NCBI GenBank assembly: GCA_949358305.1
Contig: OX442314.1
Span: 12,710,001 to 12,774,000, forward strand
Length of the DNA: 64,000 bases
Source: Strigamia acuminata
Lineage: Eukaryota
Reading direction: 5' to 3'
In this document: piece by piece, positions 17,719 to 64,000 of the stretch
How the letters are laid out: every line of letters begins with the position of its first letter
How positions within the stretch are numbered: the stretch's first letter is position 1
Notes under the pieces: model-generated
Database searches by the model: none
Seen by the model: only the letters and a program-made list of their open reading frames with translations
Told to the model about the DNA's origin: nothing
Translations under genes and position numbers: made by a program

Positions 17719-19008
17719 CTATGTCATGTATTCAAGATCAAGTTGAAGATGCAAATTTTGAACTTGAACATAATTTCTAATCTCATCACAAGCTGGTTTG
17801 TCCATACTATGGCAGTTAGAAATTAACAAATCATTTAGCAGATTCTTCATTGATACCAATTTAAAAACTGTTGCTGAACTTATTAAGTGACATTGATAAA
17901 TGCCCAAGATCGTGAGATTTTGCAATAAATTCATATCAATGAGCTTTGTGATCAAGTTATCGGAAAAAGATTGACATCTCAAAACGTGTAGACTATCTAA
18001 ATTAACGGAATTTCCAAGTAACATTTGCAAATCTTGTTCGGATATTGTGTTTTGTTGTTCACTCGGTCCTTCACAAATGTATAGTGTACGTAGATTTCTG
18101 AATGGAACCTGATTGGATACGGTTTTAAAATTGTAAGAACAAGTTGTTTTAACACAGATTGAACAACGGCTCAATTTTAAACTTTTTAACATTGGACAGA
18201 AAAAGCCGATTTGCTGAATATTGACTGGACCAATCTGATACAGTTCCAAGTTAGTTAGTCGTCCCATTGTTTTGGATAGTACTGATACAACTATTTCATT
18301 AAAGCAGTTTGTGAATGTAGGTAGCCAAAATTCAATCGTATATAAATTTGGAAATATTTGTGTGACCATGCTGAGATCGTCATCTGTCCACTCACGCAGA
18401 CTTATACTTTCGAGGGAATATGGGTTTAGCATTTTGTTGGATTTAAAATCTTGTTTTAGGAGTGGAAATAATTTGACATCACAATCTAATTTTCTTAGCA
18501 AATGCAGATTTTTTACAAGTTGTAAACATAAATTTGCCGTAACATTCGTTTCGCAAATGTTTAAATATTCAAGTTTCATATTGCTAGTAATCAGCTTGGC
18601 TAAAATCAAATCTGAGATCTCATCGTTTCTGTTCAAGTAAAGACGTTGTAGGTTGGGCAAATGTTTCACCAATCGTATTAAGCAGTCAGATGAAATTCCA
18701 AGGTATGCTAAATCTAGTTCTGCCAGGTTTTTACACACTTCGATAATTTTATCTACAACTTCGTGTATGTGCAGAGCGGAAAACCGGGCCAAATGACACA
18801 ATGATCGCGTGTCAGGACGAATAAATTCATCGGCATGCAAACGATGTTGAAATGCCGTTTTATCGTTCCGAACATAACGAACAACGCGTGGATATATCTT
18901 ATTAACCAATTGAGGTGGAAAGTTAATAAGGCGTATTTTGTCATAATGTGCGGCGATTGTGTTCAAACACAATTCTTCCAAACCCGATGCTGATTTTCTA
19001 CTTGGCAT
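17719..19008 (-). CDS. BC-box/LRR family paralogue 1 (429 aa), putative CRL2-type substrate receptor
   Basis: Intronless ORF; SGLEELCLNTI...FPPQLVNKIY, then ~9-10 LxxLxL repeats with Cys (FBXL/AMN1-like). Confidence 0.85.
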   Translation of the reverse strand: MPSRKSASGLEELCLNTIAAHYDKIRLINFPPQLVNKIYPRVVRYVRNDKTAFQHRLHADEFIRPDTRSLCHLARFSALHIHEVVDKIIEVCKNLAELDLAYLGISSDCLIRLVKHLPNLQRLYLNRNDEISDLILAKLITSNMKLEYLNICETNVTANLCLQLVKNLHLLRKLDCDVKLFPLLKQDFKSNKMLNPYSLESISLREWTDDDLSMVTQIFPNLYTIEFWLPTFTNCFNEIVVSVLSKTMGRLTNLELYQIGPVNIQQIGFFCPMLKSLKLSRCSICVKTTCSYNFKTVSNQVPFRNLRTLYICEGPSEQQNTISEQDLQMLLGNSVNLDSLHVLRCQSFSDNLITKLIDMNLLQNLTILGIYQCHLISSATVFKLVSMKNLLNDLLISNCHSMDKPACDEIRNYVQVQNLHLQLDLEYMT

Positions 19009-19522
19009 ATTAGATGGTCAGCCTTCAACGGAATGATTACTGATCCGTTAAGCATCGCTTAAATAGAACTTGTAAACGTACTGTGAAGTATTGCATATCA
19101 CATTACACTTGGGATAACGAAATGATCCGTGAAGCATCGCTTAAATAGAACTTGTAAACACACTATTGACGTTCAGTGACAATTGATTTCGTTCACCAAA
19201 CGCACACACCGTAATTAATTTAAATTTTATTTTGACCTTTTACTTTCAGATTAGTTAAAGATACAGACTGAAGCAAAAAATAATTTAGGCTGGGAATAAA
19301 AGTAATTTATTAAAATTGACAGTATTCTTTAACCAATTAAGTCAATAATAAAATCTACAATCACAAAAGGAAAGTTAACGAACCAGTAATCAATTAATTT
19401 AAACTAATGATTTTTATTTAAAAACAAAACAAAACAACGGGACCTATAGATCTAGACTAGATCATGATTGAACACTATTCGGTCAACCCAAGAACAGTTG
19501 ATTAGGTTTGGGTGACTTAAAG

Positions 19523-20980
19523 TTATGGATATGTATCGGAATGATGAAGCTCAAGATGCAAATTCTCACCTTGAATGTAATTTTCAATTGTAACCCAAGC
19601 TGCATCGTCGATACTTGGACAACTAGCAATGTACACTTCATTTAGTGAATTTTTCATTGCTAGCAATTTGAAAACTGATGCGGAACTAATCGAAAAACAC
19701 ATAATAATAGTAAGCTTTCTGAGATTTTGCAGTAAATTCAAGTTGATGAGCTCAATGATCAAGCTATCCGAAAAGGATTCACAACTTAAAAGAGACAGGC
19801 TTTGTAAATTAATAGAATTTAGCAATAACATGCGCAAATCTTGTTCGCCTATCAATGTAAGCTCCGTCAATGTAACTGGGTCGTACGGTACTTGATGAAT
19901 TTTCAGTTTACGTAGTCTTCGGAATGGCAGCCGATTGGACGCAGTTTTTGAATTATGCGATGTTTCAACGTTGATTGAACAATAGCTCAATTGTAAACTC
20001 TCCAACACTGGGCAGAAAATGTCAATTTGCTCAATATTGACTAGACCAATCCTGAACAGTTTTAAGCTGGTTAGTCTTCCCATTGTTTTGCATAGTAATG
20101 GTGCAACTTTATCATTAAAACAGTTCCAGTATTCAACTTTCCGTAGCGGATCAAAGACAATTTTACGTAAATTCGGAAACATTTGTGCGACGATGCTGGG
20201 ATCATCAATTGTCCATTCTCGCAGCGTTACATTTTCGAGAGAGTATGTGCGACACATTTAATTGCGATTAAAGTTTTGTTTTAGGAGTCTCGATAAGTCT
20301 CTCCACATGTCGCGATCAGAATCTAATTTCTTTAGAAGCGGTAGATTTTCTACAAGTTGTAAACATCCATTAACCGTAACATTCGTTTTGCAAATGTTTA
20401 AATATTCAAGTTTCAGGTTGCTCGTAACGATCTCGGCTAAAACCCAATCTGTGATTCCACTAGCTGCATTCAAAAACTAACATATTTTGTGTTTTACTTC
20501 AATTTTAAACCAAAAATGACATCATTTCCTGTTTAAACCCATGTTAAAACTTAAAATACACTTAAACTAAAATTGTTATTTCAATTTTTGAATGCAGCTA
20601 CTGTTTTCTTCGAAGTTAAGACGCCGAATGTTGGGCAAATGTTTCGCCAATGTGATTACACATTCCGATGGAACTTGCGTGCATGACAAAGCTAGGTCTA
20701 TCAGGTTCTTACAAACGCGGATTATTTTATCTACAACTTCGTGCGTGGACACGTAGGAAAACCAGTGCGTAAGATCTAAAGATCTTGTGCCAGGACGAAT
20801 AAAATCATCCGGATCCGGATGAAAACGATCACAAAAATCGGAATCAACAGAGTGTAGATATATATTATTAATCAGTGTGTCAGGAAAACGGATAAGTTGA
20901 TGGCGTATGTTGTCGTAATGTGTTTCGATTGTGTTCAAACACAATTCTTCCAAGCTGAACGCGGATTTTTTAAACGGCAT
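19523..20980 (-). pseudogene. BC-box/LRR paralogue 2, disrupted
   Basis: Three collinear ORF pieces. A 138-bp MITE sits at 20462-20599, and an in-frame TAA at 20258-20260 stands where paralogue 4 has GAA. A LINE separates the ATG from its promoter motif. Confidence 0.88.
20462..20599. mobile_element. 138-bp MITE with 3-bp TSD
   Basis: 15-bp TIR AGCTGCATTCAAAAA...TTTTTGAATGCAGCT with ACT on both sides. Removing it plus one TSD restores E-N-S-G-I-T-D in the host ORF. Confidence 0.85.
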
Positions 20981-20983
20981 GTC

Positions 20984-23774
20984 TCGACCCTAGATACAAG
21001 ATGATTACATTCAATAGCCGCATGACCACAAGGTCATGCAACAAATCGTTTTCCCTTGTTTATCTGAATGCCCGCTCGCTCCTCCCCAAAATCGATGATC
21101 TTGCAGGTTTAGCTAATATCCACTCCCCCGATTTAATAACCATCACTGAGACGTGGCTATCCTCAGACTGCCCGAATGACATCATTGACATTCCCGGCTA
21201 CTCCATCGTCCGCTCCGACCGCCCGTCCACCGGCGGTGGTGTGGCTGCTTACATAAAAAATAGTCATAGTCCTTCTTCCATTGTAACAGTGCAGTCCGAG
21301 GGCATCGAACTTCTCTCATGTACTTTGACTAACACCAACATCGCCCTCCAAATCATCGTCCTCTATCGCCCGAGCACAAAACCTATTTCTCATGCACTAG
21401 AGCTAATCTCCGACCTAATTGCCCCTAATACCTACATTATTTTAGCAGGAGATTTCAACTATAACTTCCTCCCTCAAAACCCGACTAACATAATAAACAA
21501 TTTCATGTCTAGTTTTGGCCTCCACCCGGTCATTCACGCACCAACCCGTATAACAGACACTACTTCGACTTTAATTGACCAAATATTTGTGACCAAGAGC
21601 ATAACCTTCTCCCCCTGCCATCTTACAGACCTTGATAGACTCGACCACAAAGTCGCCTCTATTTCCTTCTCGATACCCAAACCTACAGTTCCTCGCCCCC
21701 CCAGTCGCACCAACCACTACTCATTCAAGAACTGCAACTGGGATGAAGTCAACAAGGCCATTACTCTCATTGACTGGTCTCCCATGCTCGCCACGCTGGA
21801 CCCTAATGCTAAACTCATTATTTTCTACCATGAGATAACCAACATCCTTGCTAAATTCGCCCCTCCCAAGGCCAAGTCTCGTACCAAACCTAAGCAATGG
21901 TGGACCACCGAACTCACCACCCTGCAAAAGAGGAAAACGCACGCATATCGTTACCGCTCCACACATCCCCTGAATTATAAAATTGCTCGCCGCCACTTTA
22001 AAGCCATGGTCAAGCGCAACAAGCGTAGGGCCGTCATGGCACCGAGAAACTTTTGGCGCCTAATCAGCACCCGAACTGCTGCGGTCGAACTCCCCAATTC
22101 ACCGACCGCTCTAACTGATTATGCCCACTTTTGTGACAACCCTCGTAATGTCACTACCAGCAATTACACTGAAACCGCCACACCCTCCCCACCCAATTTT
22201 CTTGATTTCAATTATGTTACCCCCGCCGACGTGTATCTGGCCGCCCTTAGGATAAATCTCTCGTCCAGGCACTCCCATGATCGCGTTCCGGGTATTGCCA
22301 TCAAGAAAATACTTCCTGCCATTGTACTCCCGCTTACAAATATACTCAACTCAATCATCGACACCTCCATATATCCCACTACCTGGAAGCATGCCGTTGT
22401 CACTCCAATCTATAAAGGCGGCGACAAAAATTCAATTAAGAACTTTAGGCCCATCTCGTCCCTCTCCCCACTGTGCAAGATTGCTGACAACACCATCCTT
22501 ATGCAAATTCGTCCAACCCTCTCGCGCCACTCCCCTTCTACCCAATACGGTACCCGTCCCGGATCAAGCGCCCAGCTGCTAATCGCTTCGCTGTACCTTG
22601 ATATCATCCACTGCTGTGACGAGTCTAAAGCCCTTCACCTTGCTAAAACAGATGTGTTAAAGGCATTTGACACCCCTCCCCAACACTACGTCCTCGATTG
22701 CCTCCGAAACCACGGCATTGGCCCTAGACCTATTAAACTCTTCGCCTCCTACTTCTCGGACAGAACCTTCCACATAGCTAATGACTTATCCCAGACCGAC
22801 TACCCCATCACTCGTGGAGTAGTCCAAGGCACCACCACTGGTCCCCTACTGTATAACTCAGCAGCGGCACCCGTCCTGTCACTCCCCCTTCAGTCACGTA
22901 TCCGGTCCTACGTAGACGACAACTTCCTGACCCAGGTTGCCGCGGCAAATCAAGAGCTCACTGCCCTGCCCCGTTTTGCACCAGACTTGACCCTCCTTGC
23001 CGACTGGTACTCAAAACACGACATGGGTCTCAATCAGGAAAAAACATCAACCCTGAGCTTCAAGCGACCCTCGAGAGGCGTCGTACCTTACCCCACCGAA
23101 CAGATTACAGTCCTGGGACTCATCCTCGACCCACATCTCACCTTTGGCCCTCATATCCGCCATTTAACTTTATTCCTTACCCGGTCAGCCTACATTGTAA
23201 AACACCTGCGCCGTGTCCTGTCCCGTACAGAAATGATCAGTTATATTAAGTCCAAGATTTACCCCGTCATCACCTATGCCTCGTCGATTTGGAACTCGAC
23301 GGCCCGCCGGTTCAAGTTCCCTCTTGCTAAGGCGTACAATGCGGTCATTCGCAACGCTTTCAACCGTTACGGTCATAACCGCATCACTCCGGTGTGCAAT
23401 GAGTTCGGTATCCTGACTTTGGACAACCTCCTCCTGCTTCATGATCTCTCCGCCATAGCAGACGTCCTCCGAAATGCTGATCATCCTGCTGATGCCATTA
23501 CGGAATTCTACCACTCTGACGTGAATACCCGGACGTCTCGGCGCCATAAGTTCGAGATCACGGTAGAGCGAACGACCTACCTACGCAAGACATTCCCACA
23601 TAGATGCACGACACTCTGGAATGATCTTCCCATCGACCTCCGCACTACGGTCTTTGACTGTGCTGCCTCAAAGTGTCGTTTCCACTGCTGCCACCTTCAT
23701 AAGCGCATAAGCAAACACCTATTAGACCAACAAGCTCTTTCATAAACCTGTATCCTACTCCACTGGAGTGTCTC

Positions 23775-23814
<40 letters not shown>
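20984..23814 (+). mobile_element. Non-LTR retrotransposon (APE+RT; L2/CR1-like), no ORF1 seen, (TAAA)n tail
   Basis: Intact ORF, ~30-bp 3' UTR and (TAAA)n tail at ~23777-23814; second partial copy at ~52096-52476. The 5' boundary is approximate and no TSD was recognised. Confidence 0.9.
21001..23745 (+). CDS. LINE ORF2: apurinic-type endonuclease + reverse transcriptase (914 aa)
   Basis: YLNARSL, ITETWL, GDFN, LIDQIF, LDH (APE); FRPISSL, KAFD, GVVQG...GPLLY, YVDD (RT). Confidence 0.93.
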   Translation: MITFNSRMTTRSCNKSFSLVYLNARSLLPKIDDLAGLANIHSPDLITITETWLSSDCPNDIIDIPGYSIVRSDRPSTGGGVAAYIKNSHSPSSIVTVQSEGIELLSCTLTNTNIALQIIVLYRPSTKPISHALELISDLIAPNTYIILAGDFNYNFLPQNPTNIINNFMSSFGLHPVIHAPTRITDTTSTLIDQIFVTKSITFSPCHLTDLDRLDHKVASISFSIPKPTVPRPPSRTNHYSFKNCNWDEVNKAITLIDWSPMLATLDPNAKLIIFYHEITNILAKFAPPKAKSRTKPKQWWTTELTTLQKRKTHAYRYRSTHPLNYKIARRHFKAMVKRNKRRAVMAPRNFWRLISTRTAAVELPNSPTALTDYAHFCDNPRNVTTSNYTETATPSPPNFLDFNYVTPADVYLAALRINLSSRHSHDRVPGIAIKKILPAIVLPLTNILNSIIDTSIYPTTWKHAVVTPIYKGGDKNSIKNFRPISSLSPLCKIADNTILMQIRPTLSRHSPSTQYGTRPGSSAQLLIASLYLDIIHCCDESKALHLAKTDVLKAFDTPPQHYVLDCLRNHGIGPRPIKLFASYFSDRTFHIANDLSQTDYPITRGVVQGTTTGPLLYNSAAAPVLSLPLQSRIRSYVDDNFLTQVAAANQELTALPRFAPDLTLLADWYSKHDMGLNQEKTSTLSFKRPSRGVVPYPTEQITVLGLILDPHLTFGPHIRHLTLFLTRSAYIVKHLRRVLSRTEMISYIKSKIYPVITYASSIWNSTARRFKFPLAKAYNAVIRNAFNRYGHNRITPVCNEFGILTLDNLLLLHDLSAIADVLRNADHPADAITEFYHSDVNTRTSRRHKFEITVERTTYLRKTFPHRCTTLWNDLPIDLRTTVFDCAASKCRFHCCHLHKRISKHLLDQQALS

Positions 23815-24022: not shown

Positions 24023-26218
24023 TGTTGGGATGTCCTATGATGTCATTATTAATAAGCGCCACCTAGCGCCTTGTGTATAAATACGTAATAAACTTTAAGG
24101 GAAACACTTCCGATTTTACCACGTTAACGTTAACACCTTGTCCGTTATTTTTCTACAACCTCAATCACGTTACATCCAACAGGTTATGGGCCTAGGAACG
24201 CTGTAACTGCACAGGGAAGTAGCTGCAACATTGTATTTGGCATTAATCGTGCCAGAATCTAACTTTTTTGGAAAAATTGTGTTTTTGAGAGACGAGGACG
24301 ACGGTGCAGTAGCAGATGAACCCGAGCAACAGCAATTGCGACGCAACCCACCACGCAACTGCGGACCTCCGAAGCGTTTGGCGGACCACTACGCTCTCTA
24401 CACGACAATGGAACAGTGTGGGGACGATCCCAATTCGTACAGTGAGGCCATGCAACGCCCTGATGCAGACGAATGGAAACAGGCCGTTTTGCAGGAACTG
24501 GACGCACTCGAAAAGTGTAAAACTTGGGAACTCGCTGATTTGCCACCTGGGCGCAAGCCCATTACTTGTCGCTGGGTTTTCTGCATTAAACGAACAGCAG
24601 ATGGGAACCTTGAGCGATACAAAGCGCGTTTGGTAGCGCGTGGATGCTCACAAGTAGGCGGAATTGACTACGACGAGACGTTTTCGCCGGTGGTCAAGTA
24701 CACGACTTTACGGCTCCTTTTGGCGATGGCTGCTGCTAATGGATGGGAAATCTACCAGATGGACGCTGTGACTGCCTTTTTGCACGGTGAATTGAAGGAG
24801 GAAATTTATATGACGCTGCCTGAAGGACTTGAAAAATTACTTGGCAAGGCGAAATATTGTCGATTAAAAAAGGCGTTGTATGGACTTAGACAGGCCGGGC
24901 GGGCATGGTATGAGCTCCTTGACAAGGGCTTAATTGAAATTGGCTTGACACGCTCGGATTTTGACAATTGTGTTTATTTTTTACAAGATAAATGTGGAAT
25001 TATAATTGTTGCTGTTTATGTCAATGACTTTCTTATTTTCTCTAGCAGTTCGGAATTGAAACGGAGGACAAAAGGACAACTTTCATCAAAGTTTGAGATG
25101 AAAGATTTTGGCGAAGCTCATTACTGTCTTGGCATAAGATTTACCAGAGACCGGAAGCTTGGGACAATCAGTTTGGACCAGTCGGAATACATCAAGCGGC
25201 TGCTGAAACGATTTGATATGCCGGATTGCAAGCCGACCCCAACACCAACGGACCCAAGCCTGAAGCTCACCAACTTAATGGCGCCGAAGACTGCTACAGA
25301 AAGGGCGGAGATCAGCAAAGTACCTTATCAAGAGGCAGTCGGAAGTTTACTTTATGCAGCACAAGCAACAAGACCGGACATTGCACAAGCTGTGGGAGTG
25401 GTCAGTAAATTCAATTCTAATTTTGGACCTCTCCATTGGATTGCAGTGAAGCGGATCATGCGATATTTGCAAGGAACAATCAACATGAAACTGGTGTACG
25501 GAACTTCGAAAAGTTCAACGGTTGTTGGTTATGCAGACGCCGATCACGCTGGATGTCTTGATACGAGGAGGTCGACTACTGGATACCTTTTCATGGCAGC
25601 TGGTGGGGCAATCAGCTGGTCCAGTAAGAAACAACCAACTGTTGCTGAGTCAACTACAGAAGCAGAATACATGTCTGTATCGATGGCGTCTAAAGAAGCT
25701 ATTTGGTTGCGACGAGCTATTCAAGAATTGAAACCCAACGAATGCAAAGTGCCAATTGTTGTTCATTCGGATAACCAGAGCGCACTCAGATTGTCAAAGA
25801 ATGCTGTGTACCACTCCAGAACCAAGCATATTGATATCAAGCATCATTTCATCCGGGAAGTCATAAAAAATGGACATATTATCGTCAAGTTTATTGGGAC
25901 TGAGGAGATGATCGCTGATATTCTAACCAAGGGACTAACAAAAGAAAAACATCAATGGTGTACAAGGATAATGGGATTGTTAAATTAATTTTGTTTTTGT
26001 ATACCATATTTGAAACTGTTTGTTGTTGTATTTTGCATTATGTCATCAAAGTGTGGGAGTGTTGGGATGTCCTATGATGTCATTATTAATAAGCGCCACC
26101 TAGCGCCTTGTGTATAAATACGTAATAAACTTTAAGGGAAACACTTCCGGTTTTACCACGTTAACGTTAACACCTTGTCCGTTATTTCTCTACAACCTCA
26201 ATCACGTTACATCCAACA
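24023..26218 (+). mobile_element. Internally deleted Ty1/copia element with both LTRs
   Basis: 159-bp LTRs at 24023-24181 and 26060-26218 (TGTTGG...CCAACA; 2 differences seen), 5-bp TSD ATGTA, copia-type PBS GGTTATGGGCC at 24182. gag, protease and integrase are missing. Confidence 0.93.
24231..25988 (+). pseudogene. Copia RT-RNase H remnant, open frame but YVDD changed to YVND
   Basis: RYKARLVARG, QMDAVTAFLHG, LYGLRQ, AVYVNDF, GYADADHA, RTKHIDIKHHF, ADILTK. Confidence 0.88.
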
Positions 26219-26407: not shown

Positions 26408-26508
26408 GAACGTACCAGGTCGAATAAAATCATCCGGGTGCAAACGATCACAATATTTGCCGAATTAAACATCATCATCAACAATCTGTCGATATACATT
26501 ATTAACCA
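26408..26508 (-). pseudogene. Small N-terminal remnant of a BC-box/LRR paralogue
   Basis: Encodes family-like VNNVYRQIVDD and RLHPDDFIRPGT. Confidence 0.7.
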
Positions 26509-29079: not shown

Positions 29080-29795
29080 CCTAAATCATGTGTTCAAGAA
29101 CAAGTTGAACACGCAAATTAACTTGCGCATAATTTGTAATCACATCACAAGCTGGTTTGTCCATACTTTGGCAACATTTATCATGTTCTAATATTTTCTG
29201 GACAAACGGTTTGACCCGTTTATTTGAATTTTTGGCCACAAACTATCAATACATTAAGAAATAAAGTGTATATTCTGAATTGTCTATATTGTCTCTTTTT
29301 TAAGAGTAAAACATGTCCAAACCCAAAGTTAAATAAATCGCGGTTTGTCCATACTTTGGCCATACTTTGGCAGTTAGAAATTAACAAATCATTAAGAGGA
29401 TTCTTCATTGATACCAATTTTAAAACTGTTGCTGAACCTATCGAGTGACAATGACTAATGCTCAACATTTTAAGATTTTGCAGTAAATTCATTTCGACGA
29501 GCTTTGTCATCAAGTTATCGAAAAAAGATTGACAACCCAAAACGTGAGGTTCTCTAAATTAACGGAATTTACAAGTTAACATTTGCAAATGTTGTTCGGA
29601 TATTGTGTTTTGTTGTTCACCCGGTTCTTCAAAAATGAATAGTGTATGCATATTTCTGAATGGAACCTGATTGGATACTGTTTTTAAATTGTACCGTAAT
29701 AATAAGTTGTTTTAACACAGATTGGAAAATCGCTCAATAATAACAGTTGGACAGAAAAAGCCGGTCCAAACAACGCAATGATCTCGTGTCAGGAC
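29080..29795 (-). pseudogene. Degraded, internally deleted BC-box/LRR paralogue
   Basis: GCQSFFDNLMTKLVEMNLLQNL...DLLISNCQSM with frameshifts, an insertion and a large deletion. Its 3' flank (~28830-29080) duplicates that of paralogue 3 (~26730-26970). Confidence 0.8.
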
Positions 29796-38005: not shown

Positions 38006-38007
38006 CG

Positions 38008-38025: not shown

Positions 38026-38073
38026 CGATTTAAACGACTCGAATAGAACTTGAGATCATTTTCATACCCAAAA

Positions 38074-41172: not shown

Positions 41173-41177
41173 CATTC

Positions 41178-49490: not shown

Positions 49491-49529
49491 TCGCTCCGAA
49501 CACCGGCGGTCAGAGCTGGGAGGGGGACG

Positions 49530-54362: not shown

Positions 54363-54450
54363 AAATTATGTTCAAAGTCAGAATATGGATCTTGTCCTTA
54401 AACAGAACGTGACCTTACAGAAGACCTTGAAGAAGACGACGCAGGTTAAA
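54363..54450 (+). pseudogene. Tiny C-terminal remnant of a BC-box/LRR paralogue
   Basis: NYVQSQNMDLVL...EDLEEDD-like sequence resembling the end of paralogue 4. Confidence 0.6.
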
Positions 54451-54674
54451 AAATCCACGTAAATCACAATTCAAAAAATAAAATTGATGTGCATCGTTCA
54501 TTAAATTACTTTTTCTTATCTATTTATTCTCTATATTATCTCAATACAACCGAAGGAATAAATTATTTCCATAACATCCGAGTCATTCAAACCTAATCAA
54601 CTAACGATTTCCCCAGTTTGACTCCTTTTTTCAGCAAGTGTAAATATTACACCTTACACGTGTCACGATACACC

Positions 54675-57600
54675 TGTGAAGTATTGCATATCACATTACA
54701 CTTGGGATTTAAGTATAACATTCTAACTTGTGGCTTAATGAAGCCCAAGCGGAAACAAGGTTACTCGAACGAATTTTGAGTCAAGACTGATTTATTGTGT
54801 CTAGAATATGTGTCGTCAAGTTTGTGTTGCTAGGTTGAACCCTAGCAACTCAAGAATCAAAGTATTGTTTTAATTAGAGTAACAATTGGTATACTAAATA
54901 ATTGAGATTCAAAATCGAGACATAACTGAATACATAACACCCTTCCCCCCTCATTTTGGAACATAATCCTTGAGATGTTTCGGTTGGTTCTTGAGCCTGT
55001 CTGATCTGCGAACGGGCGTGGCCGCTGGTGGAAGGCGGGCCTGAGCAACAGGAGTCTGAGAGCTTCGTTGGAGCTCAACCAAGCGCTGGGTTAGCACGGC
55101 CGGGTCGAGCTGATAAGCTGGTCTAGGAGTCTGGCGATCGGCAACGTGAGCTGATACAGTGGCCGTGCGATATACTGGCTCCATAGATGCTGACGGTTGA
55201 TTTCCGGTCATAGGTGGTGACCTAATAGCAGATGACGATGATGGCTGCAATGGTAATGGTGATAACAATGGTTGATGAGGCGAATTGAGTGAAGTTGTAT
55301 TGGGAGAAGGGTCGAACATAGCCGGTGAATACATAGGCGCGCTGCCCTCCGACGTATGAGGTGATGTGAACGCGGATGATGATGATGAAGAAGAAGAACC
55401 CGAGTCAGTTCCCCATTCTGCAAGCAAGTTTGCTCGCGCTGCGAAATCCAAAATTGGATTAAAATGGGGTGGTGAAGGTTGAACCAGGGCCGATGCCGCT
55501 GGGGATGTCTGTGGGATAAGGGGCACGGCAGCTGCCGGGGCAAGACTGGCCGGAGGGCCTGGTGTTTCCCCCCGAAATTTTCGTAGATGATTCAAATGCC
55601 GGACGATTAGATTACCGGCATCTGTACGAATTTCGTAAACCAGTGTGCCACGCACGGCGACAACCGAGCCCCTGGCCCATTTAGGGGCTTGCGCGAGAAA
55701 TACGCGATACCAAACTGGTTCACCTAAACGCAAACGCAAAGCAGAAGGCAGAGCGACGCCAACTGGGTCGGGCTCTCTGGGAAAAACCCAGGTTTGGACC
55801 AATTGGTGCCAAACGTCAGCTATTTGACGGTTAAAAAGGCGGACGGATGGGGAAATTCCATCGACACCAGAAGGCGTGGCGTGCTGCGTAAGCAAGATGC
55901 GGGGAATGACTAGGTCCCATGCTGTAGATGAAGCTCGTGCTAGCTGCTCCTTGGTCCATCTAACAGCTTTTTCAGCTCGGCCGTTAGACTGTGGGCTGTA
56001 AGGAGGTGAAAACAGGTGTGTGATGTGATTAGCTCGAGTAAATTCGCCCATCTCGCTGGAGCTGAATTGAGGGCCATTGTCGGTGACCAGGACCCGGGGC
56101 AGACCATGCGTGGCAAAAAGACGCCTAAATACTGTAATGATTGCCGCGGATATAGTAGTCCGCATGGCTGCAACCTCAATCCACGCAGAAAACGCGTCGA
56201 CAACTACTAAAAACATGGTGCTGTGGAGAGGTCCGGCCAGGTCTGCATGGATTCGGACCCAAGGGCCGTCGGGAACTGGCCAGGGCACTAAGGGAGCCCG
56301 TGGAGACAAGGGGCGCGTTTGCTGACAAGGATTACATTGCGCCACAAACTGCTCAATGTCACGGGACATCCCTGGCCACCAGACAAATGGTCTGGCCCGG
56401 CGCTTCATTGCGACAATTCCAACATGATGGAAATGCAAAGATTGCAGCAAATCCGGGACCAGAGACTGAGGCAATACCACACGATCATGCACCAACAAAA
56501 GCCGGTGTGCAGAAGACATCACACGCCTGCGCTGCCAGTAAGATGATGGAACAGCTACAGGGCGTAACGCGGGCCACGATGCAGCTATGTATGCTGCTAA
56601 GACCTGAAGGAGGGGGTCGGCTAACGTTGCCTGAACCAAGCGCTCCCTGGAAATGAATGTAGAATGAGACGTGGACAGGCTTCGAATGTCCGCCGGGTAT
56701 GCAGCGTCTGACTCAACCCCGAGCGCATCCGGATCAGAAAGAGGCAAACGGCTCAGGGCATCCGCCTCCCTCAAGTGAGTGCCGGGCCTGTGAAATAAGT
56801 CATAATGGTAAGTGCTTAACAACAAGGCCCACCTCAACAGTCTAGGGCTGATGATGTTTGGGATGGGCTTGTTTGGTCCCAGTATCCCGAGGAGGGGTTT
56901 GTGGTCGGTATAAATAGAAACAAAAGTGCCAGCCAAATGGCTATGGAACTTCTTCAAACCGAACACAATGGCCGCTGCCTCCTTGTCCAGCTGAGCATAG
57001 TTCTGCTCAGCCGACGACAAGGTACGTGAGGCATAGGCAACAGGACGCTCGGAGCCATCACTCATTTTGTGTGCCAACACAGCACCTAAGCCATATGGCG
57101 AAGCATCGCAGATTAGCAACAAAGGCTTCTGTAAATCATAATACGTGAGGACTTCCGGCGACGCCAAGATCTTTTTTAGTTGTTGAAAGGCGGCCTGCTG
57201 CGTGGGACCCCACACCCACTCCGCTTCCCTCTGCAGAAGAGCGTAGAGGGGAGCGGATAGGTGCGCCATCCTCGGGACATATGAAGCATAATATACCACC
57301 ATGCCAAGAAAGGACTTGAGTGTCGTGACGGTCGTTGGGGCTGGACAGTCCAAGACTGCCTGCACCTTAGACATTGCAGGAGCTATGCCATGTTGTGTTA
57401 ATGAATGGCCCAGGTACTGAACACTAGTCCTAACCAACTGACACTTGTCACGTGAGACCCTCAAGCCCTTGTTGGCAAGTCGATCGAAAACTAAAACCAT
57501 GGTGTAAAAATGTGATTCAAGGGTCGGGGTTGCAATTAATATGTCGTCCTGATATACTAGAACACCGGGCAGACCACGAAATATGCCGTCCACGATGCGT

Positions 57601-60600
57601 TGGAAAATGCCGGAGGAGGGCGCAGTGCCAAATGGCAAACGTGTAACGGCCATGAGACCCCTATGAGTATTGACCGCCACTAATAAAGATGATCGGGCGG
57701 TCAAAGGGATCTGCTGATACGCCTGCCTCAGGTCCAAGAGCGTGAAGTACATCGCATTGGCCAGCCCGGCAAGGAGGTCGGCAACCAATGGTAGAGGGTA
57801 GGGGTCAGGGAGAATGAACCGATTGACAGTTGCTCTGTAATCTCCACACAACCGCAAACCCCCATTGGCCTTGGTGACAACGACCAATGGGGTGGCCCAC
57901 TCAGAATATTGGATGGGCCGAAAAACCCCCTGGCTAATCAACTGGTCAATAGCCACATCTACCAAGGGTCGCTTCGCATGCGGAATGGGTCGTGGGCGAA
58001 AGAACACTGGGCGCGTGCCCGGTTGAACATGCAAATCAACGGGAGGCCCCGTGTAAGTCCCAATGCCGGGCTGGAAAACAATTGCATAGTTCTTATGAAT
58101 GTACCTCACAATTGACTCGGGGGATTGAGGCGGCGGAGGCAAATCCAAGTTGGATGTTTGAAAAATGTTGGCATGATCAAAGTGCGGTGAAGTGCTGAAA
58201 CTGTGATTCGAAGGCGAGGTTAAATGAAGTGAGGTTGACAATGAAACCTCGCCCTCGTTATGAATTAGTGAATTAATGCACAATGCCTCGTCCACGGCAT
58301 ACGCCAAACCCGGGATTAACCCAAAACGTGCGATAGAGTCGCGTCCCATAATTGGTGGACCAGGGCTCCGAGTGACCACCACGGGCATCCGGTGAGTGGT
58401 GGCATGGACGGTGACCGAAACCAAAACTACACCCAATAACTCAATCAACGCATGAGGGTAGGCAAATAAATTAATGGCGGCAGGGTACCGCCTTACCACC
58501 TGACCAGACTGTTGTTCAATGGCGGTCAAGACATCGGATCCCACGACGGTGTACTCGGAGCCTGTGTCCAACTGAAAATGAACAAAAACATGGTTAATAT
58601 GAGCCTCAACCATGATGGGTGGGAGCAGACACTTATCGCTCTTGAGATAGTATAGTGGGTAATCCATGCTTAAATTCGATTCATTAACAAACCCTTGATT
58701 GGCATTGGCATTATTCATGTGAGATGAAGGTGAAAGGTTTAATGGCTGCATATTGGGTTGTTGACCGCCAAGAATGCCAGAGACTGGTGTAGGCACAGCA
58801 GCTTGACCACCGGGTGGATGATAAGAGTCGGGTGGAACGTTGGCTGTCCATTGGTAATCCGACATTGGCTGTGTGGCCACAAAGTTCATCGGAGAGGTCG
58901 ACTGACGAAAACGAGGAGAGGGTCGCTGAGAAAAGGTCCCCGCTGGTTGGGGAGAGGATGACCCCGGGCCAAATTGGGTGGCTCGAAGAACATTCTGAGG
59001 CGAAGGTTGACCGTTCCTACATACAGCGGCGATGTGTCCTGTGCGACCACATGTGCGACAGACAGCAGCCTGGAAAGGGCAGACTGCTCGGGAGTGGGCT
59101 TGGCCGCAACCGTTGCACATAAACCTTGAACCCGAAGATGAGCCAACGTTAAACCTCTGGAAAGATTGACCAGACTGTCCAAGTCTCCCCGGTGGTCTTG
59201 CTACTTGCGCGGTCAGAGTGGCGCCTGGCATACGAGCGCCGTCCCATGGTCCCCGCTGTTGGGATCTGCCAGCAGATTTGGCAAAAGGCAACCTGGGCTT
59301 AGGGGAGAATCGGTTAGAAGATGTACCGCTCTGCAGCTGGAAAAGAGCCGCTTGGGGGGCTTGGATGGTGGAAATCTGCTGCATGGGCATTACGGTGGAG
59401 GACCTATAGATGGCGTTGCCCTGGGTGGCGGCTTGAAAGCCGATGGCCATAGATGAGGCTTTGTCTAGAGTAAGATTCTCCTCCCCAAGCAACTTCTGCC
59501 GCAGTGGTTCAATTCCAACTCCCCTGATGAGTTGGTCAAGCACAAGTTGCTCTATTTGCTCGGTCGTGGTCGCTCCCGTCCGTTCTGCGAGACCCCGGAG
59601 AGCAGCGATGTAGTTGGACATGGTCTCCTCCGGGGCACGCAGACGTGAGCCCAACAAATGCCGCTGGACAACCGGGCGAGGTGCGGGGGTGAAGTGCTCC
59701 TCAAGTTTCGTAGTGATGTCCACAAAGGTTTGTTTATTCAACTTCTTGGGGGCAAACAGATTGTGGGCCAGTTGATACGTGGCAGGGCCCACGACAGACA
59801 AGAGAAACGCACGCTTTTTGTCGGCTGGAATGGCATTCAGAGTCACCAACTCCTCAAAGTGCTCGAGATATAACGACCAGTCCTCAGCAGTGGAACCCAA
59901 AAAAGGGACTGGAGTGCCTAAGAGCGCAGGTGGAATGGCAGATGCAGGTGGATCGGCCATTGGTGGTAATAAGACTGGAAGAATTAATTCTTTGTTGTCC
60001 ACTAAATCTGCAAGCATACGTTATTGTATTTCACACTGCATGAATGCAGGATAACGGTGGGTGCGACACGCCGAGCAAAAGGTTGGCCTAACCGACGCAC
60101 GCTGGAACGACGCACGCGTAGTCAACGCACACTTGATCAATGCACTGTTGATCGACGCACCTGGCATCGCAAATCGTGTCGGCATGCAACATTGTGTTGA
60201 TTTGACACACACGTGGTAGGCGCTTATCGTTCGTGTCATGTCCAAACCAACCATATGAAGGAAAAGTTCACAAAAACTGTACTTAAATTGCTAAGCAAAA
60301 TGTCTTATCTGGATTTAGAAGAACGAGAATGTCCAAGGAGTAGTCTGGATCAAGCAAAGCCTTGCGAAACATTTGCCCTCATGTGGCATGAGTTCTGCAC
60401 TCGAATCCGTATGTCTGCCGTTCGTCCAACGTTCGAAAACGCACAGTCGACGTCCGTCCGGGGCTCGAAAACGTCTGGCCGACGCTCGTTCGGCATTCGA
60501 AAATGTATGGTCGATGCTCCACACGAACACGGCTGTGCACTCGTAAAAATTTCGCAATTACTTGTTCCAGTGATGTGTCCTTGTTATCCATTTGATGCGG

Positions 60601-61061
60601 CTTGTTGCATGTCATTACTTGTTAATCCAGTTGATGAAGTGATTCAGAAGATGTAACCACAGTCGAACACATATTAAAAGATTCAAACATAAACTTGAAA
60701 TTCGATTTAAGACAACGCGGAAATTTCTTATCTGTAAGTTTTGTCCGTTTCAAAACATTGTAAAATGAAGATCTAAATCACTGTTCACGACGCCAATGTG
60801 AAGTATTGCATATCACATTACACTTGGGATTTAAGTATAACATTCTAACTTGTGGCTTAATGAAGCCCAAGCGGAAACAAGGTTACTCGAACGAATTTTG
60901 AGTCAAGACTGATTTATTGTGTCTAGAATATGTGTCGTCAAGTTTGTGTTGCTAGGTTGAACCCTAGCAACTCAAGAATCAAAGTATTGTTTTAATTAGA
61001 GTAACAATTGGTATACTAAATAATTGAGATTCAAAATCGAGACATAACTGAATACATAACA
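54675..61061 (-). mobile_element. Full-length Mag-like Ty3/gypsy retrotransposon C
   Basis: 265-bp LTRs at 54675-54939 and 60797-61061 with no differences spotted, 5-bp TSD ACACC, PBS TGGCGTCGTGAACAG (minus, 60795-60781), PPT GGGGGGAAGGG (54950-54940), single intact ORF. Confidence 0.96.
54951..60017 (-). CDS. Single-ORF Gag-Pol polyprotein of element C (1688 aa)
   Basis: Gag with two Cys/His knuckles (CNGCGQAHSRAVC; CRTCGRTGHIAAVC), QLDTGS protease, YQDD RT, CDASPYG RNase H, HADLAGP / TDNGPQF / SNGRAE integrase. Confidence 0.95.
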   Translation of the reverse strand: MLADLVDNKELILPVLLPPMADPPASAIPPALLGTPVPFLGSTAEDWSLYLEHFEELVTLNAIPADKKRAFLLSVVGPATYQLAHNLFAPKKLNKQTFVDITTKLEEHFTPAPRPVVQRHLLGSRLRAPEETMSNYIAALRGLAERTGATTTEQIEQLVLDQLIRGVGIEPLRQKLLGEENLTLDKASSMAIGFQAATQGNAIYRSSTVMPMQQISTIQAPQAALFQLQSGTSSNRFSPKPRLPFAKSAGRSQQRGPWDGARMPGATLTAQVARPPGRLGQSGQSFQRFNVGSSSGSRFMCNGCGQAHSRAVCPFQAAVCRTCGRTGHIAAVCRNGQPSPQNVLRATQFGPGSSSPQPAGTFSQRPSPRFRQSTSPMNFVATQPMSDYQWTANVPPDSYHPPGGQAAVPTPVSGILGGQQPNMQPLNLSPSSHMNNANANQGFVNESNLSMDYPLYYLKSDKCLLPPIMVEAHINHVFVHFQLDTGSEYTVVGSDVLTAIEQQSGQVVRRYPAAINLFAYPHALIELLGVVLVSVTVHATTHRMPVVVTRSPGPPIMGRDSIARFGLIPGLAYAVDEALCINSLIHNEGEVSLSTSLHLTSPSNHSFSTSPHFDHANIFQTSNLDLPPPPQSPESIVRYIHKNYAIVFQPGIGTYTGPPVDLHVQPGTRPVFFRPRPIPHAKRPLVDVAIDQLISQGVFRPIQYSEWATPLVVVTKANGGLRLCGDYRATVNRFILPDPYPLPLVADLLAGLANAMYFTLLDLRQAYQQIPLTARSSLLVAVNTHRGLMAVTRLPFGTAPSSGIFQRIVDGIFRGLPGVLVYQDDILIATPTLESHFYTMVLVFDRLANKGLRVSRDKCQLVRTSVQYLGHSLTQHGIAPAMSKVQAVLDCPAPTTVTTLKSFLGMVVYYASYVPRMAHLSAPLYALLQREAEWVWGPTQQAAFQQLKKILASPEVLTYYDLQKPLLLICDASPYGLGAVLAHKMSDGSERPVAYASRTLSSAEQNYAQLDKEAAAIVFGLKKFHSHLAGTFVSIYTDHKPLLGILGPNKPIPNIISPRLLRWALLLSTYHYDLFHRPGTHLREADALSRLPLSDPDALGVESDAAYPADIRSLSTSHSTFISRERLVQATLADPLLQVLAAYIAASWPALRPVAVPSSYWQRRRVMSSAHRLLLVHDRVVLPQSLVPDLLQSLHFHHVGIVAMKRRARPFVWWPGMSRDIEQFVAQCNPCQQTRPLSPRAPLVPWPVPDGPWVRIHADLAGPLHSTMFLVVVDAFSAWIEVAAMRTTISAAIITVFRRLFATHGLPRVLVTDNGPQFSSSEMGEFTRANHITHLFSPPYSPQSNGRAEKAVRWTKEQLARASSTAWDLVIPRILLTQHATPSGVDGISPSVRLFNRQIADVWHQLVQTWVFPREPDPVGVALPSALRLRLGEPVWYRVFLAQAPKWARGSVVAVRGTLVYEIRTDAGNLIVRHLNHLRKFRGETPGPPASLAPAAAVPLIPQTSPAASALVQPSPPHFNPILDFAARANLLAEWGTDSGSSSSSSSSAFTSPHTSEGSAPMYSPAMFDPSPNTTSLNSPHQPLLSPLPLQPSSSSAIRSPPMTGNQPSASMEPVYRTATVSAHVADRQTPRPAYQLDPAVLTQRLVELQRSSQTPVAQARLPPAATPVRRSDRLKNQPKHLKDYVPK

Positions 61062-61251: not shown

Positions 61252-62574
61252 ATGCCTAATAAGAAATCGGCATCGAGTTTGAAAGAATTGTGTTTGCAAT
61301 CAATCTTTGCACATTACCACGAGATACGACATCATCTTATTCATTTTCCCATCGTATTGGTTAATAAGATATATCAACACTTTGTTGAATTTCAGGTTCA
61401 AAGATTCGGAATGTTTGCTATACTTCATAAAAGAAAACAGTTTCGTTTGCATTCGGATGATTTTATTCGCCCAGGCACGAGATTGTTACGCTGTTTGGAC
61501 CGGTTTTACGATCTGCCTACGAACAAACTAGTAGATAAAATAATCCTCGTTTGTAAAAACCTGGCTGATCTAGACTTATCAGGCTACCCGATTCCACCCG
61601 AATTTGTAATTACATTGGTACAACATTTACCCAGCATTCGACGTCTTAACTTGGAAAGAGTCAATGGCATCACGGACTTGATTTTAGCCAAGATGTATAC
61701 GAGAAACGTGCAAATTGAATATTTAAACATTCGCGCTACCAAAGTTACAGTAAATGGATGTTTACAACTCGTAAAAAATCTGCCACTTCTAAAAGAATTA
61801 AATGTTGATCACCAGATGTGGGGAGAATTATTTCAACTCCTAAAACAAGATTTTTATCGCAGCAAACATACATATTCTCTCGAAAGTGTAGGTTTAGATG
61901 AGTGGACAGTTGACGATCCCAGCGTAGTCCCACAAATGTTTCCAAATTTACGTAAAATTGATATTGCGATAATTCAACCCGGGAAGCATTTCGATGTTAT
62001 AGTTGCATCGATACTATGCAAAACAATGGGAAAAATAACTATGCTAAGATTGTACAATATTAGTCAAATCAATATTTGGCAAATTGGCTTTTACTGCCCA
62101 ATGTTGGAAAGTTTACAATTGAATAATTGTTCCATCAGCGCCGATACAACTAATTGTGACAATTTAGAACACGTCAACAATCATCAGCCATTCAGAAATC
62201 TACGTACACTACAAATTCTTGAACGACAGATGAATCAACCAGATGTACTAACCATAACCAAACATATTTTGCAAATGTTGTTGGTAAATTCCATCAATTT
62301 AAAGAGCCTACGTGTTAGTAGAATTCAACCTTTTTCGGATAGCTTCATTACAGAGCTCATCGAATTAAATTTACTGCAAAATCTCAGTGAGCTTTTCATT
62401 ACCGAGTGTCACTCGATTAGTTCTGAAACAGTTTTAAAATTGCTTGCTACGAAAAATCCCCTAAATGTTTTCTATATTATTCATTGCCGTAATATCGACA
62501 AACCAGCTTGTGACATAATTAGAAATTATGTTCAAAGTCAGAATTTGGATCTTGAGCTTACGATGGGTGTGTGA
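61252..62574 (+). CDS. BC-box/LRR family paralogue 7 (440 aa)
   Basis: SSLKELCLQSI...FPIVLVNKIY + LRRs; intronless. Confidence 0.85.
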   Translation: MPNKKSASSLKELCLQSIFAHYHEIRHHLIHFPIVLVNKIYQHFVEFQVQRFGMFAILHKRKQFRLHSDDFIRPGTRLLRCLDRFYDLPTNKLVDKIILVCKNLADLDLSGYPIPPEFVITLVQHLPSIRRLNLERVNGITDLILAKMYTRNVQIEYLNIRATKVTVNGCLQLVKNLPLLKELNVDHQMWGELFQLLKQDFYRSKHTYSLESVGLDEWTVDDPSVVPQMFPNLRKIDIAIIQPGKHFDVIVASILCKTMGKITMLRLYNISQINIWQIGFYCPMLESLQLNNCSISADTTNCDNLEHVNNHQPFRNLRTLQILERQMNQPDVLTITKHILQMLLVNSINLKSLRVSRIQPFSDSFITELIELNLLQNLSELFITECHSISSETVLKLLATKNPLNVFYIIHCRNIDKPACDIIRNYVQSQNLDLELTMGV

Positions 62575-62859
62575 ATTACCTCTTAAAGCAATTACCGGTA
62601 CTATAATATCCAAAAGAATAAATAAAGTAAATTTATCTCGTTTAGATCAATTAAGCAAACTTTAAGAATTTATTTCATTTTTCACAAGTGTTACTAATTC
62701 TGCATTGTTTTATCACATCTTCTTTCAAACAATTGAACAGGGGTCCATAAAATCTCTCGATAATTTGAAAACTTTATTAAAATTACTAAAAAATAATCAG
62801 ATATTTTTGAAACTTGTACATAACATAACATAACGTAACGTATTTACCGCTTTCATCTG

Positions 62860-63200
62860 TGTAACCTACGTCAACAATGTGTTGATAGATATTATTAACC
62901 AATACGATTGGAAAATTAGTAAGATCGCGGCTTATTTCGTTGTAATGGTTGATCTGAGTAAAGATGATTAAAATCAAGACAGTCAAGATGGTCAAGAATA
63001 AAAATATAAAGAATCAAGATCTTGATCTGTATTTTTATCTGTATCCAACTCGCGTAGGCTCGATACATTTAAGCACAGATTCACTGAACTGTAATCATTC
63101 CACTGACCATCTGGTATCACAACACGCCCAAAGTAACACCTACACGCAAGGTCCTGGCACCAGTAGAAGAGATTTTTTAGATCAAGGGGCATCCAACTAA
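62860..63200. pseudogene. Rearranged remnants of LRR paralogues
   Basis: Minus ~62860-62950 encodes HYNEISRDLTNFPIVLVNNIYQHIVD; ~62960-63190 is an inverted homologue of ~36650-36990. Confidence 0.65.
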
Positions 63201-63340
63201 AATTCGAACACTCCAATCAAATTTTTTAAATTTATTACGGTACATTACAACGTTTGCTAAACGTTACAAATTGTCACGTATATACGGTAGTTTGCCTTCA
63301 TTTAAACTATGGTTCACTGAGCTGTAACCATTCCCACGAC

Positions 63341-64000
63341 ATGCCGTTTAAGAAATCCGCATCGAGTTTGGAAGAATTGTGTTTGAAATCAATCTTAGCA
63401 CATTACCACGAGATACGCCATGATCTTATTCATTTTCCTATCGTATTGGTTAACAATATACACCAACACTTTGTTGAAAGTACGGTAGAAAGAAGCGGAG
63501 CGTGGGATACATCTCATAAAGGAAAAAATTATCGTTTGCATTCGGATGATTTTATTCGTCCAGGCACAAGATCGTTAAGCTGTTTGTACTGGTTTTACGA
63601 TCTGCCTGCGCACAAACTTGTAGATAAAATAACCCGCGTTTGTAAAAACCTGTCAGATGTAGACTTATCAGGTAATGCGATTCCACCCAAATTTGTAATT
63701 ACATTAGTACAACATTTACCCAGCATTCGACGTCTTCACTTGGGTCCAACCACTGGGATCACAGATTTGATTTCAGCCAAGATGTTTACGAGAAACGTGA
63801 AAATTGAATATTTAAACATTTGCGCTACCGACGTTACAGTAAATGGATGTTTACAACTCGTAAAAAATCTGCCACTTCTAAAAAAAATAATTGTTGATCA
63901 CCAGATGTGGGGAAAATTATTTCGACTCCTAAAACAAGATTTTTATCGCAGCAAAAAGTTGAATACATATTCTCTCGAAAGTTTAAGTTTCGATGATTGG
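63341..64000 (+). CDS. BC-box/LRR family paralogue 8, partial (runs off the window end; absent from the ORF track)
   Basis: Manual translation from ATG 63341: MPFKKSASSLEELCLKSILAHYHEIRHDLIHFPIVLVNNIHQHF...RLHSDDFIRPGT...; appears open to 64000. Confidence 0.82.
   Translation, partial: MPFKKSASSLEELCLKSILAHYHEIRHDLIHFPIVLVNNIHQHFVESTVERSGAWDTSHKGKNYRLHSDDFIRPGTRSLSCLYWFYDLPAHKLVDKITRVCKNLSDVDLSGNAIPPKFVITLVQHLPSIRRLHLGPTTGITDLISAKMFTRNVKIEYLNICATDVTVNGCLQLVKNLPLLKKIIVDHQMWGKLFRLLKQDFYRSKKLNTYSLESLSFDDW

What the first reader, a model, noticed from the sequence alone, without database searches (positions are those of the whole stretch)
17719..64000. Birth-and-death cluster of intronless BC-box/Cul2-box-LRR genes: a candidate diversified ubiquitin-ligase receptor repertoire
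Seen: at least 14 copies or remnants in ~46 kb, in both orientations, sharing MPxKKSASSLEExCLxxI followed ~15 aa later by FPxxLVNxIY and then LRRs. Known: [STP]LxxxCxxx(hydrophobic) is the Elongin-BC box and hydrophobic-Pxx-hydrophobic-xxx-hydrophobic resembles the Cul2 box. BC-box+LRR is the PRAME/LRRC14/ZYG11-type CRL2 receptor layout, and expanded ligase-adaptor families (e.g. nematode F-box genes) have been linked to host-pathogen conflict. Inference: a lineage-specific arsenal for recognising and degrading variable, perhaps viral or TE-encoded, proteins. No function is demonstrated by the sequence.
Basis: partly seen in the sequence, partly recalled or inferred. Interest (0 to 1): 0.85.

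Follow-up and report, generated by a model that had tools for sequence, protein, structure and literature searches.

The report
Fast-evolving ubiquitin-ligase receptor gene cluster
This stretch, likely from a centipede, holds a cluster of duplicated, partly decaying genes whose proteins are predicted to plug into the Elongin C ubiquitin-ligase machinery with one conserved end while their predicted target-gripping surface changes unusually fast, so they likely mark shifting targets, perhaps from parasites or selfish elements, for destruction.

Summary
Confirmed and strengthened. Between 17.7 and 64 kb lie 16 family segments on both strands: 6 intact intronless ORFs (429-511 aa, 52-73% identical), 1 cut by the window edge, 1 full-length pseudogene and 8 fragments. 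Five transposons fill 54% of the span. The N-terminus fits the published BC-box (7 of 8 copies) and Cul2-box (8 of 8). The family profile aligns from its N-terminus with yeast Rad7, solved with Elongin C. A model with Elongin C scores 0.83 against 0.00 for controls. No F-box is found in 43 members, though databases label relatives F-box. New here: positive selection (omega about 4-5 on 11-12% of codons) concentrates on the LRR beta-strands (18 of 23 sites). The copies form one clade nested among Strigamia (centipede) paralogues, offshoots of an apparently undescribed ~500-aa bilaterian family that is neither PRAME nor ZYG11 as far as tested. It likely works as a diversifying Elongin-BC/Cul2 substrate-receptor repertoire, paralleling mammalian PRAME and nematode zyg-11 expansions. 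Targets, expression and cullin choice are untested.

The parts
17719..19008 (-). Copy a, intact, 429 aa; BC-box starts with G instead of S/T/P
19523..20980 (-). Copy x, full-length pseudogene: ~147-bp MITE-like insert at 20458-20604 with stops, plus one further stop; promoter cut off by a LINE
20985..23814 (+). LINE (endonuclease + RT, TAAA tail) inserted between copy x's ATG and its promoter-like motif (about 23,815-23,900)
24023..26218 (+). Short Copia-type element, 159-bp LTRs, 5-bp target duplication; contigs joining across it in 3 of 4 runs
26411..26508 (-). Fragment (post-Cul2-box region, with stop)
26970..28271 (-). Copy b, intact, 433 aa; closest pair with a (73%)
29087..29797 (-). Decayed 3' part of an a/b-like copy, split by a ~180-bp insert and a deletion
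29859..29924 (+). Weak 3' remnant (E 0.007)
30137..31441 (+). Copy c, intact, 434 aa from the conserved Met-Pro
32017..32128 (+). 3' remnant
32643..34178 (+). Copy d, intact, 511 aa, with acidic tail from a 24-bp tandem repeat
34764..36089 (+). Copy e, intact, 441 aa; used for folding and the Elongin C model (BC-box 9-18, Cul2-box 32-40, 12-13 LRR strands)
37010..50525 (+). Gypsy-type LTR element (identical ~997-bp LTRs, 4-bp target duplication, gag, pol, third ORF) inserted in the acidic tail of remnant h
50526..51030 (-). Remnant h, 3' third of a copy; 5' part deleted
51024..51894 (+). Remnant i, 3' 60% of a copy with frameshift; back to back with h at a shared deletion junction
54363..54464 (+). 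3'-end remnant
54675..61061 (-). Gypsy-type LTR element (identical 265-bp LTRs, 5-bp target duplication), 190 bp upstream of copy f
61252..62574 (+). Copy f, intact, 440 aa
62864..62947 (-). N-terminal remnant with the Cul2-box
63341..64000 (+). Copy g, open to the window edge (220 aa seen)
34690..34763 (+). Example of the conserved TATA-like + Initiator-like core motif found just upstream of the ATG of most copies
   Evidence: Initiator consensus recalled

Best explanation
These duplicated intronless genes encode proteins predicted to be substrate receptors of Elongin B/C-Cullin-2 ubiquitin ligases, whose LRR strands have diversified under positive selection, likely to track changing targets from parasites or selfish genetic elements. 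Steps: (1) shown in sequence: an N-terminal BC-box and Cul2-type box followed by a cysteine-type LRR solenoid; (2) modelled: Leu10, Cys14 and Ile18 dock on Elongin C; (3) inferred from the motif: Cul2-Rbx1 is recruited rather than Cul5; (4) inferred from LRR ligases in general: the concave strands grip the substrate, which is ubiquitylated and degraded; (5) shown by codon models: those strands change faster than neutral; (6) shown: copies are born by local duplication together with their upstream motif and die by transposon insertion and deletion; (7) inferred only: the driver is conflict with foreign or selfish proteins. My odds by step: binds Elongin C 0.85; uses Cul2 0.7; targets are non-self or selfish 0.5.
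For: BC-box consensus 7 of 8 copies, Cul2-box 8 of 8, Cul5-type LPxP 0 of 8; both by chance 0.2% (consensus from PMC4878042). Family profile aligns with yeast Rad7 (5zb2, solved with Elc1) from profile position 5, i-E 2.8e-18, while the four F-box proteins shown align only from position 60 on; hhalign repeats this contrast. Complex model with Elongin C: score 0.83, best of 3 controls 0.00; mark reached by 51 of 78 solved complexes and 2 of 108 mismatched pairs (eukaryotes: 39 of 65 and 2 of 126); runs agree in at least 95% of contacts, partner pLDDT at least 73. N-terminal model's best match among 48,161 chains is the N-terminus of ZYG11B with EloB/C (Z 5.2, rmsd 3.3, 110 aligned). Selection: M2a vs M1a 2dL 83-86, omega 4.7-4.9 on 12% of 407 codons; 44.6 with multi-nucleotide changes allowed; 47-75 leaving out each copy; 18 of 23 top sites in a strand zone holding 107 of 407 codons, p 1e-7. 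Nine window rows form one clade (SH-aLRT 100).
Against: The complex pass may come from memory of solved BC-box complexes; it used a stand-in Elongin C from a metagenome contig, without Elongin B or a cullin, and no Skp1 comparison was run. The ZYG11B match is weak (Z under 8). For the whole chain the best fold match is the F-box protein FBXL2 (Z 25.4, rmsd 3.9, 347 aligned), Rad7 second (Z 22.9, rmsd 4.2, 333 aligned). With a separate synonymous rate for the 60 exposed codons, omega falls from 1.73 to 1.09-1.16, not different from 1. Overall constraint is weak (pairwise omega 0.48-0.90; 42-46% of codons near neutral), and the N-terminus is no more constrained than the LRR bulk in the fixed-sites model (0.52 vs 0.54). 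One possible conversion tract lies between a and b (p 0.002 uncorrected, 1 of 15 pairs). Only six sequences entered the codon models, which I coded myself. Rad7 uses Cul3 (PMC10454142), so the cullin is not settled. No target is identified.
Confidence: 0.6

Rival explanations
1. Same Elongin-C ligase receptors, but driven by germline or early-embryo biology as proposed for PRAME: the targets are fast-evolving host reproductive or chromatin proteins.
For: The human PRAME cluster shows the same pattern (32 copies, 10 pseudogenes, selected sites on one face) and was read as germ-cell competition (PMC1262708). PRAME carries a VHL box (PMC4878042).
Against: Nothing here bears on tissue; the family is not shown to be PRAME-derived.
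Confidence: 0.22
2. Atypical F-box/LRR proteins that bind Skp1-Cul1, as the database names of the relatives suggest.
For: 6 of 9 Strigamia relatives are named 'F-box domain-containing'; FBXL2 is the best whole-chain fold match; the Cul2-box helix gives faint hits to F-box-like segments (i-E 0.12 or worse).
Against: Pfam F-box in 0 of 43 members at E 0.1; the region that would hold the later F-box helices is indel-rich; the upstream BC helix is conserved (21 of 28 outside relatives) and docks on Elongin C.
Confidence: 0.06
3. Redundant duplicates drifting under relaxed selection in a transposon-rich region; exposed LRR residues vary because they are unconstrained.
For: Half of the segments are dead; 54% of the span is transposon; the free-synonymous-rate test gives omega near 1 at exposed sites.
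Against: Site models reject omega at most 1 under every variant tried; synonymous differences between same-residue codons are not raised at exposed sites (49 of 278 vs 640 of 2872); in the a-b pair 37 of 60 exposed codons changed residue against 58 of 306 others; six long ORFs stay open at dS about 0.5.
Confidence: 0.07
4. Elongin-C-binding LRR proteins that act as decoys, sensors or inhibitors (binding targets or sequestering Elongin B/C) without productive ubiquitylation.
For: Only Elongin C contact was modelled; in the nematode zeel-1 antidote the zyg-11-like domain alone gave no rescue (PMC3144186).
Against: The Cul2-box is kept in 8 of 8 copies.
Confidence: 0.05

Closest known systems
Yeast Rad7 (Rad7-Rad16-Elc1-Cul3 ligase; PDB 5zb2)
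   Same: Profile match starting at the BC helix and running through cullin-box region into the LRRs; second-best fold match.
   Different: Rad7/Rhp7 is a conserved repair factor with a long N-terminal extension and, in the fungal relative checked, a treble-clef finger; these proteins start 8 residues before the BC-box, are multicopy and fast-evolving. Orthology was not tested.
Mammalian PRAME cluster
   Same: VHL box + LRR; tandem birth-and-death cluster with pseudogenes; selected sites on one face (PMC1262708, PMC4878042).
   Different: PRAME genes have three coding exons and are eutherian expansions; no PRAME-named protein was among the 30 relatives looked up.
ZYG-11/ZER1 family and its Caenorhabditis expansion (19-37 genes, source of zeel-1)
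   Same: N-terminal VHL box before LRRs; best N-terminal fold match is ZYG11B (Z 5.2); lineage-specific tandem arrays (PMC3144186).
   Different: ZYG11B is about 720 aa in the solved chains and ends in an ARM domain (recalled); these are 430-510 aa and LRR only. Pfam LRR_Zer-1 hits 6 of 43 members weakly.
Unnamed ~500-aa bilaterian LRR family (Strigamia T1IP17, Tachypleus, Patella, Lingula, Branchiostoma, Patiria, Ptychodera, Homalodisca; look-alike zebrafish si:ch211-214j8.12)
   Same: Parent family: same N-terminal boxes, hits E 1e-23 to 1e-11.
   Different: Window copies have a shorter linker between the boxes, lack a central segment and one LRR, and sit in a centipede-expanded clade.
Nematode and plant F-box expansions (SCF adaptors)
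   Same: Conserved adaptor end with a diversifying substrate end (recalled).
   Different: Different adaptor (Skp1/Cul1); no F-box here.

Membership tests
VHL-box (CRL2) substrate receptors | BC-box consensus (S/T/P)LxxxC/S/Axxx-hydrophobic | tested here: met
   7 of 8 copies; copy a has Gly at the first position (consensus)
VHL-box (CRL2) substrate receptors | Cul2-box hydrophobic-Pxx-hydrophobic-xxx-hydrophobic downstream of the BC-box, no Cul5-type LPxP | tested here: met
   8 of 8 and 0 of 8; the motif alone arises in 7.7% of shuffles
VHL-box (CRL2) substrate receptors | Docks on Elongin C through the BC helix (model) | tested here: met
   score 0.83 vs best control 0.00; 51 of 78 solved and 2 of 108 mismatched pairs reach the mark; may reflect likeness to solved complexes
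VHL-box (CRL2) substrate receptors | Binds Elongin B/C and Cul2 in cells and ubiquitylates a substrate | not testable with these tools
   needs co-IP and ubiquitylation assays
F-box/LRR (FBXL) proteins | F-box domain at the N-terminus | tested here: not met
   Pfam F-box families in 0 of 43 members at E 0.1; profile aligns to FBXL proteins only in the LRRs
F-box/LRR (FBXL) proteins | Binds Skp1 | not tested
   the single complex job went to Elongin C
Rad7 family | Elc1-binding N-terminal segment continuous with LRRs | tested here: met
   i-E 2.8e-18 from profile position 5; hhalign 97.9%
Rad7 family | N-terminal extension with Rhp7 treble-clef finger; partner Rad16; repair role | tested here: not met
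   finger found in the fungal relative, absent from the window proteins; partner and role untested
PRAME/LRRC14 family | Sequence kinship to PRAME | tested here: inconclusive
   no PRAME name among 30 of 150 relatives looked up; no direct comparison was possible
ZYG-11/ZER1 family | C-terminal ARM domain after the LRRs (recalled) | tested here: not met
   model is LRR to the end, followed by a short or acidic tail
Birth-and-death family under diversifying selection | Lineage-specific clade, pseudogenes, omega above 1 at binding-surface codons | tested here: met
   one stricter partition test was not significant

The most novel reading that the evidence does not exclude
An undescribed animal family descended from, or sister to, fungal Rad7 has been turned in centipedes into a large, repeatedly re-expanded repertoire of Elongin-C ligase receptors that works as an intracellular immune system: variable LRR faces recognise viral, parasite or transposon proteins and send them to the proteasome. 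It would be a third independent animal case after PRAME and nematode zyg-11, hidden under 'F-box' labels.
Probability: 0.35. Interest if true: 0.8.

Novelty: new variant of a known kind. Interest (0 to 1): 0.6.

Why it matters
If right, arthropods outside insects run a diversifying ubiquitin-ligase receptor repertoire on the Elongin-C platform, built from a family that databases mislabel as F-box. It shows that the VHL-box + LRR design is repeatedly recruited for rapid diversification, gives a mapped set of selected surface residues for finding the targets, and points to an unstudied bilaterian family with Rad7 likeness. The general principle (expanded, positively selected ligase adaptors) is already known, which caps the score.

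Tried and rejected
No whole genome is held, so no genome-wide count. Word-indexed search with the six copies found only distant F-box/LRR proteins (6 hits); the full HMMER scan was needed. The 60-residue N-terminal profile of window copies alone found 0 PDB sequences at E 10; the Rad7 match needs the wider family profile. Sequencing runs: no RNA holder listed. Viral origin: 87 pattern matches in viral contigs, none confirmed. Rfam: 0 matches in the window. IQ-TREE partitions with free branch lengths did not separate exposed-site omega from 1, consistent with the free-rate test. The careful tree did not finish; the quick tree is reported. Retrocopy origin of each copy rejected: upstream motifs are shared between copies; a single ancestral intron loss remains possible. 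Earlier scan findings: none in 3 look-ups. A second Atlas search did not complete. The Rad7-Elc1 structure paper is not held. A likeness to human AMN1 is recalled and untested.
Full report
Observation. ORF listing and self-searches show 16 segments of one gene family between 17,719 and 64,000, on both strands. Six are intact ORFs (a 17719-19008 -, b 26970-28271 -, c 30137-31441 +, d 32643-34178 +, e 34764-36089 +, f 61252-62574 +), 52-73% identical. One (g) runs off the window, one (x) is full length but broken, and eight are fragments, one of them weak (E 0.007). The N-terminal motif is present in eight segments.

Birth and death. Five transposons occupy 25,076 of 46,282 bp, and several hit the family directly. 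A ~147-bp element with terminal inverted repeats sits in the CDS of x, and a LINE separates x from its upstream motif. A 13.5-kb Gypsy element with identical LTRs sits in the tail of remnant h, and a second one lies 190 bp before f. Remnants h and i stand back to back at a deletion that removed both 5' parts. Most copies keep a shared TATA-like motif 40-80 bp before the ATG, with an Initiator-like TCATT about 27-31 bp further on in five of seven (Initiator consensus recalled). So copies were duplicated as DNA with their flanks.

Relatives. A scan of 1.84 billion representatives gave 5 proteins at E up to 1e-30 and 173 up to 1e-10. I looked up 30 of the 150 listed: all five best and four more are from the centipede Strigamia maritima, 11 are from other bilaterians (hemichordate, lancelets, sea star, molluscs, brachiopod, nemertean, horseshoe crab, leafhopper), 1 is from an amoeba and 9 are unnamed. 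The Atlas gave arthropod LRR clusters of 480-510 aa at 0.96-0.97 and a chordate cluster at 0.95. In a quick tree of 44 rows, the nine window rows form one clade (SH-aLRT 100) inside a group with seven Strigamia proteins and one unnamed protein (96); the eighth Strigamia protein sits with the conserved ~500-aa family (midpoint root, no bootstrap). Window copies share the loss of one LRR relative to Strigamia. The host is therefore likely a myriapod (inference, limited by sampling), with two rounds of expansion from an old family.

The N-terminus. Against the consensus in PMC4878042 (passages read), the BC-box fits 7 of 8 copies and the Cul2-box 8 of 8; the Cul5-type LPxP is in none; both boxes together occur in 0.2% of 20,000 shuffles. 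Among 28 of 36 outside relatives (8 dropped for lacking the N-terminus) 21 fit the BC-box and 15 the Cul2-box. The 43-sequence profile matches yeast Rad7, solved with Elongin C, from profile position 5 (i-E 2.8e-18), whereas the four F-box proteins shown match from position 60 or later. hhalign gives the same contrast for a fungal Rhp7 and an F-box/LRR protein. Pfam finds no F-box or SOCS box in 43 members, although 6 of 9 Strigamia relatives are named F-box. AlphaFold2 gives a confident model (pLDDT 92): three N-terminal helices and an LRR solenoid; its best whole-chain matches are FBXL2 (Z 25.4) and Rad7 (Z 22.9). A model of residues 1-126 (pLDDT 75) ranks the N-terminus of ZYG11B bound to Elongin B/C first of 48,161 chains, weakly (Z 5.2, rmsd 3.3, 110 aligned). 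Residues 1-80 of copy e with an Elongin C from metagenome locus L032 (identity checked) scored 0.83 in three runs against 0.00 for the best of three controls, with Leu10, Cys14 and Ile18 at the best-resolved contacts. The mark was reached by 51 of 78 solved and 2 of 108 mismatched pairs; runs agreed in at least 95% of contacts; partner pLDDT was at least 73. Like complexes are solved, so the pass shows likeness, not binding. Skp1 was not modelled.

Selection. Pairwise omega is 0.48-0.90 at dS 0.17-0.63. Identity at LRR positions 5, 7 and 8 is 0.18-0.22 against 0.65 elsewhere (12 repeats picked by hand from 20 pattern hits, later matching the modelled strands). Site models that I coded (six sequences, 407 ungapped codons) give M2a vs M1a 2dL 83 and M8 vs M8a 81, with omega 4.1-4.7 on 12-15% of codons. 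The signal survives other codon frequencies (86), multi-nucleotide changes (44.6) and leaving out each copy (47-75); 18 of 23 top sites fall in the strand zone, 107 of 407 codons (p 1e-7). Against this: with its own synonymous rate the exposed class has omega 1.09-1.16, not significant, versus 1.73 with a shared rate; and a and b may share a conversion tract.

Mechanism. The anatomy fits a substrate receptor: BC-box on Elongin C, cullin box on Cul2 (inferred; Rad7 uses Cul3, PMC10454142 passages), concave LRR face on the target. A fixed adaptor end with a fast-changing binding face, plus gene turnover, is what a chase after changing targets predicts. I favour parasites or selfish elements, but nothing here names a target, and a germline role is the main rival.

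Comparison and novelty. PRAME shows the same layout and evolution (PMC1262708, passages), and zyg-11 expanded to 19-37 genes in Caenorhabditis and gave rise to zeel-1 (PMC3144186, passages). A human survey notes that CUL2 receptors have no common signature domain and that LRRs dominate (bioRxiv 10.64898/2026.03.13.711689, passages), which explains the mislabelling. I found no paper describing this family in ten searches (listings only unless named above). The main text of the Strigamia genome paper has no occurrence of F-box, LRR, leucine, ubiquitin or cullin (PMC4244043); its supplements were not read and may list the expansion. Subscription journals are not covered. Verdict: a real, well-supported new variant of a known kind; interest 0.6.

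Noticed in passing
window 17210-17540 (-): An orphan, GC-rich ~330-bp piece of cytoplasmic dynein heavy chain (Pfam DHC_N2, E 6e-29) with an internal deletion, 180 bp downstream of copy a, in a high-depth region; perhaps a gene fragment carried by a repeat.
   Followed up: partly
window 46461-49490 (+) and 7796-9316 (+): Both large Gypsy elements carry a long third ORF after pol (1009 and 506 aa) with no Pfam match of note and no likeness to each other; the 1009-aa one lies inside an element with identical LTRs.
   Followed up: partly
window 37010-50525 and 54675-61061: Two LTR elements with 100% identical LTR pairs and open gag/pol frames, so very recent insertions.
   Followed up: partly
window 19041-19159: A 34-bp piece identical to the start of the 265-bp LTR sits between two copies of a 37-bp promoter segment upstream of copy a: captured filler DNA.
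   Followed up: no
window 20458-20604: MITE-like element with 16-bp terminal inverted repeats and by far the highest contig depth in the laid region.
   Followed up: partly
window 62950-63203 (+) and 36631-37007 (-): Duplicated block holding a gene tail and an orphan copy of the promoter-like motif without a following ORF.
   Followed up: partly
window 33954-34151, 50526-50587, 51464-51587: Short tandem repeats have independently lengthened acidic tails or loops in three copies.
   Followed up: no
protein P0017 (unnamed contig): A relative carries an in-frame intron-like insert at a position where window copies are continuous, hinting at intron loss in the ancestor of the cluster.
   Followed up: no
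window 11839-14879: Nested inverted repeats (266 bp at 82%, 218 bp at 75%) suggest decayed DNA transposons.
   Followed up: no
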